DNA of 64,000 nt from Eledone cirrhosa (taxonomy: Eukaryota). Every line of letters starts with the position of its first letter. The first letter of the stretch is position 1. Under the pieces are notes generated by a model. The model made no database searches. It saw only the letters and a list, made by a program, of their open reading frames with translations, and had not been told where the DNA came from. Positions 52,701-54,811 of this stretch are shown one piece after another. The translations under genes and the position numbers were made by a program. The DNA lies in the NCBI GenBank assembly GCA_964016885.1, contig OZ024746.1, forward strand, positions 56,358,001 through 56,422,000, in the 5' to 3' direction.

Positions 52701-53153
52701 ATATATATATACATATATATATATATAATATAATATATATATATATATATATATATATATATATATATATATATATATATATATATATATATATATATAT
52801 ATATATATAAGTTGTAATATAATGAAACGAAATTTCATTTCTCACTCTTAGCACGGCACTTACTTAAATGTAAGTATGTATGTATACGTACATACATATA
52901 TGTATACAGACGTACAGTAGCATGCATATATATATATATATATATATATATATATATATATATATATATATATATATATATATATATATATATACATACA
53001 GGTACACATATATATATGATATGTACGTATCAGTTTAGCAGACGTTTATTATAACGCCCGCTTTGTCCGTTTGTAAACAAGCGGACAGCCTGATTTATGC
53101 CATACGGTGTTAAGGCAACCACGTCACCTTTTTGTTCAACACTGACACAGGAA

Positions 53154-53194
53154 CGATGTACTAGTTTCAAGCTTCTTAGCTATCATCAGCACCG
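53154..53194 (-). ncRNA. Minimal type I hammerhead ribozyme
   Basis: CGGTG-CTGATGA-tAGCT-aaga-AGCTt-GAAA-CTAG-TA-CATCG. Confidence 0.9.
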
Positions 53195-54005
53195 TATACC
53201 CTTCTGGAAGATAGTTGAACGTTCGAAAGCATATACTTTCCTTATGAAAATTAACGGCTGAGCACCCTAATTTGCATATCGAGTGAGTTCAGTCGGCCAG
53301 GCGTACCGAAAACGAGAAGTTGTAATATAATGAAACGAAATTTCATTTTTCACTCTTAGTACGGCACTTACTTAAATGTAAGTATGTATGTATACGTACA
53401 TACATATATGTATACAGACGTACAGTAGCATGCATATATATATATATATATATATATATATATATATATATATATATATATATATATATATATATATATA
53501 TATATATATATATATATATATATATACATACAGGTACACATATATATATGTACGTATCAGTTCAGCAGACGTTTATTATAACGCCGCTGATAGGTACATA
53601 TATATATGTGTACATGTATGTATATATATATATATATATATATATATATATATATATATATATATATATATATATGTATGTATATATATATATATATGTA
53701 TATATATATATATATATATATATATATATATATATATATATATATATATATATATATATATATATGCATGCTACTGTACGTCTGTATACATATATGTATG
53801 TACGTATACATACATACTTACATTTAAGTAAGTGCCGTACTAAGAGTGAGAAATGAAATTTCGTTTTCATTTTATTACAACTTATCGTTTTCGGTGCGCC
53901 TGGCCGACTGAACTCACTCGATATGCACATTAGGCTGCTCAGCCGTTAATTTTCATAAGGAAAGTATATACTTTCGAACGTTCAACCATCTGGTAGAAGG
54001 GTATA

Positions 54006-54046
54006 CGGTGCTGATGATTGCTAACAAGCTTGAAACTAGTACATCG
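54006..54046 (+). ncRNA. Minimal type I hammerhead ribozyme
   Basis: CGGTG-CTGATGA-ttGCT-aaca-AGCtt-GAAA-CTAG-TA-CATCG. Confidence 0.88.
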
Positions 54047-54483
54047 TTCCTGTGTCAGTGTTGAACAAAAAGATGACGTGGTTGCCTTAACACCGTACGG
54101 CATAAATTCAGGCTGTCAGTTTGTTTACAAACGGACAAATCGGGCGTTATAATAAGCGTCCGCTAAACTGATACGTACATATATGTATGTGTACCTGTAT
54201 GTATATATATATATATATATATATATATATATATATATATATATGCATGCTACTGTACGTCTGTATACATATATGTATGTACGTATACATACATACTTAC
54301 ATTTAAGTAAGTGCCGTACTAAGAGTGAGAAATGAAATTTCGTTTCATTATATTACAACTTATCGTTTTCGGTACGCCTGGCCGACTGCAATCACTCGAT
54401 ATGCAAATTAGGCTGCTCAGCCGTTAATTTTCATAAGAAAAGTATATGCTTTCGAACGTTCAACTATCTGGCAGAAGGGTATA

Positions 54484-54524
54484 CGGTGCTGATGATAGCT
54501 AAGAAGCTTGAAACTAGTACTTCG
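54484..54524 (+). ncRNA. Minimal type I hammerhead ribozyme
   Basis: CGGTG-CTGATGA-tAGCT-aaga-AGCTt-GAAA-CTAG-TA-CtTCG (one stem I mismatch). Confidence 0.82.
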
Positions 54525-54811
54525 TTCCTGTGTCAGTGTTGAACGAAAAAAAAAAAAAAAAAAAAAAAAGGTGAACTGGTTGCCTTAACACCGTATGGCA
54601 TAAATCAGGCTGTCCGCTTGTTTACAAACGGACAAAGCGGGCGTTATAATAAACGTCTGCTAAACTGATACGTATATATATATATGTGTACCTGTATGTA
54701 TATATATATATGCATGCTACTGTACGTCTCTATACATATATGTATGTACGTATACATACATACTTAAATTTATATATATATATATATATATATATATATA
54801 TATATATATAT

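What the first reader, a model, noticed from the sequence alone, without database searches (positions are those of the whole stretch)
52810..54765. Divergently inverted retrozyme-like array: 478-nt hammerhead-to-hammerhead monomer with a built-in (TA)n tract
A non-coding unit with a near-perfect minimal HHR is tandemly repeated on both sides of an inversion (~53587), so both strands encode self-cleaving RNA and the locus is a large palindrome. The two plus-strand HHRs 478 nt apart could form the dimeric ribozyme in cis and release a unit-length RNA able to circularise. Each monomer contains a variable (TA)n tract, which resembles the genomic target sites and could aid priming or spread microsatellites. 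Known: metazoan non-LTR retrozymes are tandem HHR repeats thought to be mobilised by PLEs. This family, its size and its internal microsatellite appear uncharacterised to me.
Basis: partly seen in the sequence, partly recalled or inferred. Interest (0 to 1): 0.82.

Follow-up and report, generated by a model that had tools for sequence, protein, structure and literature searches.

The report
Hammerhead retrozyme with built-in TA hairpin
This is a multi-copy, non-coding repeat carrying a hammerhead ribozyme motif, likely a 'retrozyme' spread by Penelope-like retrotransposons; its head-to-head layout is ordinary for such insertions, but each unit carries a variable TA microsatellite in a predicted hairpin that may act as a landing site for further copies.

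Summary
Confirmed: three type I hammerhead cores (+54011, +54489, -53189), predicted cuts after 54041 and 54519 (478 nt apart), a head-to-head junction at ~53587, and a (TA)6-72 tract at the same place in all five unit junctions. The unit is 436 nt plus the tract. It is a multi-copy family (5,680 contigs laid in one run; three coded organisms). The ribozyme is canonical type I with a palindromic helix III and a U.U at the base of helix II, both precedented in axolotl retrozymes. The inversion, one-sided tail and (TA)n flanks are known Penelope-like-element (PLE) hallmarks and recur at four other sites in this window. New detail: without unit A the right arm mirrors the left arm around a native hairpin (likely fold-back), while A belongs to another sequence lineage and is bounded by intervals containing the TA tracts. 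The outer ends lie ~60 and ~120 nt beyond the tract, so it did not prime those ends. A read-through transcript would form ~700 bp of duplex, not a cis dimer. Cleavage, expression and circles are untested; no PLE sharing the unit was found. Verdict: new variant of animal non-LTR retrozymes, moderate interest.

The parts
52700..52809 (.). Left flanking (TA)n, likely the target site; abuts a TA-flanked inverted-repeat element on its left
52810..52926 (-). Partial unit E: 3' flank of the TA hairpin up to the left outer end (...CAACTT|ATAT); 62 nt longer than the right end (tail-like)
52927..52994 (.). Internal (TA)34
52995..53434 (-). Unit D (same lineage as B)
53153..53195 (-). Type I hammerhead D (core 53189..53159, predicted cut after 53159 on -); helices I and II intact, outer helix I extension damaged
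53435..53526 (.). Internal (TA)46
53527..53620 (.). Inversion centre: two 5'-truncated ends ~28 nt apart in the unit, joined at ~53586-53588 across a native stem-loop with 2-nt (CT) overlap
53621..53764 (.). Internal interrupted (TA)~72: [TA]27 TGTATG [TA]8 TG [TA]33
53765..54201 (+). Unit A, a different sequence lineage from B and D
54005..54047 (+). Type I hammerhead A (core 54011-54041, predicted cut after 54041); private change at 54019 weakens helix II
54202..54243 (.). Internal (TA)21 at the tip of a predicted ~50-bp hairpin whose base is ~26 bp of flank-to-flank pairing
54244..54698 (+). Unit B, mirror partner of D; carries an expanded A-run (~54547-54569)
54483..54525 (+). Type I hammerhead B (core 54489-54519, predicted cut after 54519); U.U at helix I position 1.2
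54699..54710 (.). Internal (TA)6
54711..54765 (+). Partial unit C up to the right outer end (...CATACTTA|AATTTATAT)
54770..54811 (.). Right flanking (TA)n, followed by the 3' end of a decayed Penelope-like element (54812-~58330, - strand) that shares no sequence with the unit

Best explanation
This is one insertion of a multi-copy, hammerhead-bearing tandem repeat (436 nt plus a variable TA tract), likely an animal non-LTR retrozyme copied into a (TA)n site by Penelope-like-element machinery, whose head-to-head shape likely arose by fold-back at a hairpin of the unit. Steps: (1) Shown: unit, ribozyme core, multi-copy state. (2) Inferred from known retrozymes: tandem transcripts self-cleave through a double hammerhead (ACUAGU/ACUAGU helix III) after GUA, and host RtcB closes a highly paired circle. 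(3) Inferred: a PLE endonuclease nicks (TA)n; reverse transcription starts ~120 nt 3' of the internal tract, runs ~1.6 units (E, D, centre piece; + strand from 52810), folds back at the stem-loop at ~53559-53590, and copies itself outward to give B and C, stopping 62 nt short (one-sided tail). (4) Shown: unit A comes from another lineage. Inferred: it was added by a template switch, a later insertion or ectopic recombination within the ~158-nt interval holding the TA tract. (5) Predicted: this copy is a poor source, because read-through RNA forms a long duplex and the cut at 54519 is doubly weakened.
For: Core and spacing. Helix I 6 bp plus extension to ~23 bp. Circle MFE -153 kcal/mol, z -8.6 on the HHR strand vs -3.7 on the other strand. 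Dimer fold within 5 kcal/mol of the MFE. Family variation in 4 runs: 0 of 38 listed variant sites fall in 16 core/helix III positions, while N7 (54015) varies in ~37% of depth in X1. The other variants inside the ribozyme are a loop II base, G.U to A-U at 54008, and restoration of 54019. U.U at the base of helix II is present in the active axolotl HHR_Amex2 (PMC7229834). Inverted 5'-truncated copies, a one-sided tail and (TA)n bias are PLE hallmarks (PMC8557442). Four other TA-abutting inverted duplications lie in this window (3293/3823, 58543/58992, 62568/62694, 63194/63413). Without A, the right arm aligns end to end with the left. B-D differ at 12 of 437 sites against 21-23 for A; odd-one-out counts 16/7/5, p 0.025.
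Against: No cleavage, expression or circle shown. Core conservation alone is not significant (p ~0.17), and 6 variant rows were not displayed. The non-TA part of unit A folds only at z -1.9, and HHR A alone at z -1.0, so much of the circle's z-score comes from the TA hairpin. No PLE carrying the unit was found (window only). No target-site duplication can be read in (TA)n. The 62-nt tail is longer than the 30-40 bp reported. The junction needs a ~5-nt slip or a 2-nt microhomology join, and the junction was not checked in reads.
Confidence: 0.75

Rival explanations
1. The unit is the pseudo-LTR of an autonomous PLE family, and this locus is a 5'-truncated tandem/inverted PLE insertion, with no independent retrozyme life cycle.
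For: Same insertion geometry as PLEs. In Xenopus 24 of 57 retrozyme families match known elements, nearly all PLE termini. In organism C the match stops near 54079 and 22% of laid contigs run on into unlike sequence.
Against: Full units follow each other with no coding remnant between them. The ribozyme is canonical, not the PLE minimal type with a long helix II, an extra base after A9 and G10.1-C11.1. The adjacent PLE shares no sequence with it. In X1 the share of laid contigs running on into unlike sequence is 0.
Confidence: 0.12
2. Same family, but the two arms are independent reverse transcripts primed from both sides of the target and joined by 2-nt microhomology, the right one jumping between two RNA templates (no fold-back, no later addition of A).
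For: Arms differ in length and outer end; the right arm is a lineage mosaic; the junction has a 2-nt overlap.
Against: It needs both arms to stop within 28 nt of each other at a native hairpin and to draw the same minority-allele template by chance. Removing A leaves a colinear mirror. A's alleles span the cut site on both sides, so the switch was not at an HHR-made RNA end.
Confidence: 0.2
3. A DNA-level satellite: an old HHR-bearing repeat amplified by unequal exchange and repair at fragile (TA)n tracts, with the ribozyme a passive relic.
For: Unit A's borders fall in TA-containing intervals. Each copy has 5-7 private changes, three of which damage helices. TA cruciform fragility is recalled, not from a call.
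Against: A short array with PLE-type ends, not a long satellite. Family variation inside the ribozyme falls at tolerated positions. Strand-asymmetric folding.
Confidence: 0.1
4. The inversion is an assembly or chimeric-read artefact.
For: Long TA tracts and palindromes are hard to assemble; the junction was not tested in reads.
Against: Mirror arms differ at 12-21 of 437 sites, many of them family variants seen in independent contigs. The unit next to the centre on the right (A) is not the mirror of D. The ends and the junction are asymmetric.
Confidence: 0.04

Closest known systems
Animal non-LTR retrozymes (Cervera & de la Pena 2020, PMC7229834; Li, Clavereau & Pollet 2026, bioRxiv 10.64898/2026.07.22.740005)
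   Same: Non-coding tandem units with one type I HHR each, low GC, high copy number, predicted highly paired circle, co-occurrence with PLEs; palindromic helix III and U.U at the base of helix II as in the axolotl HHRs.
   Different: Unit of 448-580 nt because of an internal (TA)n hairpin, larger than the 170-400 nt RNAs tested but inside the 51-972 bp range of the preprint. No internal microsatellite or inverted array is described in the text read. RNA not shown here.
Penelope-like element insertions and pLTRs (Craig et al. 2021, PMC8557442; Cervera & de la Pena 2014, PMC4209133)
   Same: Inverted 5'-truncated copy, one-sided tail, (TA)n target, HHR pairs on opposite strands 100-700 bp apart.
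   Different: No ORF; canonical rather than minimal HHR; tail 62 nt rather than 30-40; no PLE sharing the unit found.
Microsatellite-bearing LINEs and other transposons (PMC8969392, passages)
   Same: Variable tandem tract carried inside or at the end of a mobile element.
   Different: Here the tract is internal, matches the target sequence, and caps a flank-to-flank hairpin in a ribozyme-delimited unit.

Membership tests
Animal non-LTR retrozymes | Tandem units each with a type I HHR (at least two consecutive) | tested here: met
   A and B in tandem, D in the other arm
Animal non-LTR retrozymes | Non-coding; no tRNA gene or LTR structure | tested here: met
   Only TA-derived open frames overlap it; no tRNA
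Animal non-LTR retrozymes | Unit of a few hundred bp, GC under 50% | tested here: met
   436 nt + 2n; surrounding 2-kb bins 30-33% GC
Animal non-LTR retrozymes | Multi-copy in the genome | tested here: met
   5,680 contigs laid in X1, 77 in X4, 1 in X5, 28 in X6, with many alternative letters; not a copy number
Animal non-LTR retrozymes | Predicted stable, highly paired circle | tested here: met
   70% paired, z -8.6; partly due to the TA hairpin
Animal non-LTR retrozymes | Self-cleavage in vitro | not testable with these tools
   Bench assay; in the 2026 preprint only 1 of 9 predicted dimers cleaved
Animal non-LTR retrozymes | Expressed as linear and circular monomers | not testable with these tools
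   Needs RNA data for this organism
Animal non-LTR retrozymes | Target-site duplication when present | tested here: inconclusive
   Both ends lie in (TA)n
PLE pseudo-LTR | Attached to an RT + GIY-YIG ORF of the same element | tested here: inconclusive
   No match between the unit and the PLE ends in the window; whole genome not held
PLE pseudo-LTR | Minimal HHR (long helix II, extra base after A9, G10.1-C11.1) | tested here: not met
   4-bp helix II with U.U, canonical helix I (vs 30, 31)
PLE-type integration | Inverted 5'-truncated copy, one-sided tail, microsatellite target | tested here: met
   tail 62 nt vs 30-40 reported

The most novel reading that the evidence does not exclude
The retrozyme carries its own target: the (UA)n hairpin lets a monomer or circle pair with nicked genomic (TA)n and be copied TA-to-TA, including into the tracts of sister copies. 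Unit A would be such a self-homing insertion, and the family would both build mixed arrays and seed new TA microsatellites. That would be a homology-primed route for PLE-driven integration.
Probability: 0.2. Interest if true: 0.7.

Novelty: new variant of a known kind. Interest (0 to 1): 0.42.

Why it matters
That PLEs mobilise animal retrozymes is still an inference from co-occurrence and terminal homology. This locus shows PLE-type integration marks (inverted truncated copy, tail, TA target) on a canonical-HHR tandem unit. Its copy-specific alleles also let the assembly order be read: likely fold-back, then addition of a foreign unit. If the internal tract is a self-target, it would give a testable route for microsatellite targeting and spread. 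If not, it is one more uncatalogued retrozyme family that captured a target microsatellite.

Tried and rejected
No whole genome is held, so copy structure and a partner PLE could not be searched genome-wide. No RNA holder listed; this says nothing on expression. Exact HHR patterns found 0 matches in viral, metagenome and prokaryote collections. Earlier scan notes: nothing by sequence, genome or relatives; two tRNA-bearing analogues by words, listing only. Rfam miRNA hits at E-value level are TA artefacts far below gathering scores. Pfam found GIY-YIG in only 1 of 7 PLE fragments, below cutoff, and the atlas gave no hit, so the neighbouring PLE's clade is unnamed. Rejected: tract as primer of the outer ends (ends lie ~55-60 and ~117 nt from it); simple rolling-circle copy of one circle for the right arm (A and B differ at 23 of 437 sites, non-randomly); LINE-1-type twin priming (one arm's 3' end does not abut the other's 5' end); template switch at the ribozyme cut (A's alleles flank 54041 on both sides). 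Depth peaks were not used as copy numbers. Positions 53765-53833 were skipped by that tool, so the right end could not be compared with the family. Loose ends near 53866 that run into TA-like letters (3 contigs in X4, 5 in X6) are only a weak hint of a shared 3' end.

Full report
Setting. The window is AT-rich animal DNA dense in (TA)n tracts and decayed retroelements. Its short repeats resemble cephalopod DNA; that label is recalled and was not tested. No whole genome is held.

Observation. Three copies of CTGATGA-N14-GAAACTAGTA lie at +54011-54041, +54489-54519 and -53189..53159. The predicted cuts after GUA at 54041 and 54519 are 478 nt apart. The arms point away from a junction at ~53586-53588. 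In ribozyme sense the left arm reads centre piece, (TA)46, unit D, (TA)34, partial E. The right arm reads centre piece, interrupted (TA)~72, unit A, (TA)21, unit B, (TA)6, partial C. The tract has the same flanks at 5 of 5 junctions, and the flank motif occurs nowhere else in the window. It is therefore inherited with the unit, which is 436 nt + 2n.

The ribozyme. Helix I is 6 bp (ACGGUG/CAUCGU) with a UAU bulge, extended to about 23 bp. Helix II is 4 bp over a U.U pair. Helix III is the palindrome ACUAGU, stable only between two copies. By PMC4209133 (parts 1-2 of 4 read) this is the canonical metazoan type I form, not the PLE minimal form. PMC7229834 (Results parts 1-2 of 3 and passages) describes axolotl HHRs with a palindromic tetraloop helix III and, in HHR_Amex2, a U.U at the base of helix II; both cleave well as dimers. 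Rfam gives only 15-18 bits for Hammerhead_HH9 at these three sites and nothing at gathering score.

Family. Six runs of three coded organisms hold the stretch, none on record as RNA. Four of the six were laid on 53765-54197: 5,680, 77, 1 and 28 contigs. Of 38 listed variant sites (40 rows; 6 further rows not shown), none lies in the 16 core and helix III positions. That alone has p ~0.17. The four variant sites inside the ribozyme are N7 (~37% in X1), a loop II base, 54008 (G.U to A-U, less often a mismatch) and 54019, where nearly all copies restore the pair that A lost. This fits selection on the ribozyme but does not prove it. The one contig of organism B is 478 letters long with 90 and 116 letters beyond the matched part, lengths that would end in the TA tracts on both sides (inference from lengths only).

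Fold. The 54042-54519 monomer folds as a circle at -153 kcal/mol, 70% paired, z -8.6, against -3.7 for the other strand; the non-TA part of A reaches only z -1.9. The tract caps a hairpin whose ~26-bp base is made by its two flanks. For 53975-54545 the double-hammerhead fold is 5 kcal/mol above the minimum. In it, the site at 54041 is served by B's intact helix II and A's intact helix I, while the site at 54519 is served by A's weakened helix II and B's mismatched helix I. A plus-strand transcript of the whole array forms 701 pairs across the centre and buries HHR A. So 'both strands encode self-cleaving RNA' is formally true, but read-through RNA is predicted to be a long duplex.

The inversion. 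PMC8557442 (passages) lists partial tandems, an inverted 5'-truncated copy, a 30-40-bp tail at one end and (TA)n preference as PLE traits. PMC4209133 notes HHR pairs on opposite strands 100-700 bp apart. This window has four other inverted duplications touching TA tracts: 3293/3823 (ahead of a PLE frame), 58543/58992, 62568/62694 (another HHR-like core, ~67-nt one-sided extension) and 63194/63413 (3' end of the PLE family next to the array). The palindrome is thus ordinary here. It is unlikely to be an artefact, since the arms differ at many sites and asymmetrically, but reads were not checked.

Order of assembly. Over 437 columns A-B differ at 23, A-D at 21 and B-D at 12; odd-one-out counts are 16, 7, 5 (p 0.025). 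Of A's 16 sites, 5 are private (94-100% of family depth has the B/D letter). At 4, B and D share a listed minority letter (12-43%). At 7 their letter is not listed at 5% or more, though up to 6 could be among the hidden rows. B and D therefore likely share a template, and A is another lineage. With A left out, the right arm aligns end to end with the left arm, lacking 28 nt at the centre and 62 nt at the outer end. The 28 nt form a native stem-loop of the unit. This is what fold-back of a + strand cDNA begun at 52810 would leave, allowing a ~5-nt slip between two CTGA words. A's right border lies between 54185 and 54343, an interval of 158 nt (33% of the unit) that holds the TA tract and ~100 nt of its 3' flank. 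Its left border is only weakly fixed, in the equivalent interval. A's alleles span the cut site, so its template was a circle, an uncleaved tandem or DNA.

The TA tract. It is not at the outer ends, which lie ~55-60 and ~117 nt beyond it and share only 2-3 letters with the target. It could have served for adding A, by RNA-DNA pairing, template switching or DNA repair; one event in a 33% interval cannot separate these. A plain origin is capture of a target microsatellite between two neighbouring copies (inference).

Partner. The decayed element at 54812-~58330 (- strand) has a YRDD motif and matches the window's other C-terminal-endonuclease PLE at ~34% identity (E 7e-26). It shares no DNA with the unit and is only a neighbour in the same TA tract. 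A 61-nt piece of the unit (88% identical) lies at 1961-2021.

Literature. The 2026 preprint (parts 1-3 of 5 read) gives units of 51-972 bp, ties retrozymes to pLTRs, and saw cleavage in only 1 of 9 tested dimers, a caution for step 2. Searches for retrozyme + microsatellite (5 listed), octopus + hammerhead ribozyme (4 listed), and searches showed no title or abstract opening on a retrozyme with an internal microsatellite; PMC7229834's main text has no 'microsatellite' or 'inverted'. PMC8969392 (passages) notes that transposons often carry microsatellites. Supplements were not read; the invertebrate figures of PMC7229834 and the preprint's tables could hold relatives. Subscription papers are not covered.

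Verdict. A real, probably uncatalogued retrozyme family with PLE-type insertion marks and an internal TA hairpin: new variant of a known kind, interest 0.42. Self-targeting through the tract is the bold reading (probability 0.2).

Noticed in passing
window 62500-62694: Near-perfect palindrome (7-nt spacer) between TA tracts carrying a different HHR-like core on both strands, also with U.U at the base of helix II; one arm ~67 nt longer.
   Followed up: partly
window 59202-59232 (-): HHR-like motif with the U3-A8 core covariation described in PMC4209133, G10.1-C11.1, a GCCC/GGGC helix II and a palindromic helix III; helix I is poor, and the pattern alone is not above chance.
   Followed up: partly
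window 1372-1405 (+): HHR core of the PLE minimal type (extra U after A9, G-C closing pair) downstream of the PLE frames at 172-1143.
   Followed up: partly
window 1961-2110: A 61-nt piece of the unit ending at the CTGA of its ribozyme, joined to other sequence with a second HHR-like core at 2069; its helix I strand still pairs with the unit's 3' strand.
   Followed up: partly
window 63194-63413 and 54812-55004: Inverted duplicate of the 3' end of the neighbouring PLE family; the copy at 54812 has a 30-nt extension beyond the shared end, like the reported PLE tail.
   Followed up: partly
window 51666-52703: Element with ~185-bp terminal inverted repeats (96%, with internal 34-bp repeats) flanked by TA, MITE-like, next to the array.
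   Followed up: no
window 46502-50605 (+): Broken frames that look like a Helitron Rep/Pif1-type helicase (recalled motifs, not scanned).
   Followed up: no
window 10849-10970 and 43780-43878: Two related hairpin-forming elements that begin right after (TA)n tracts.
   Followed up: no
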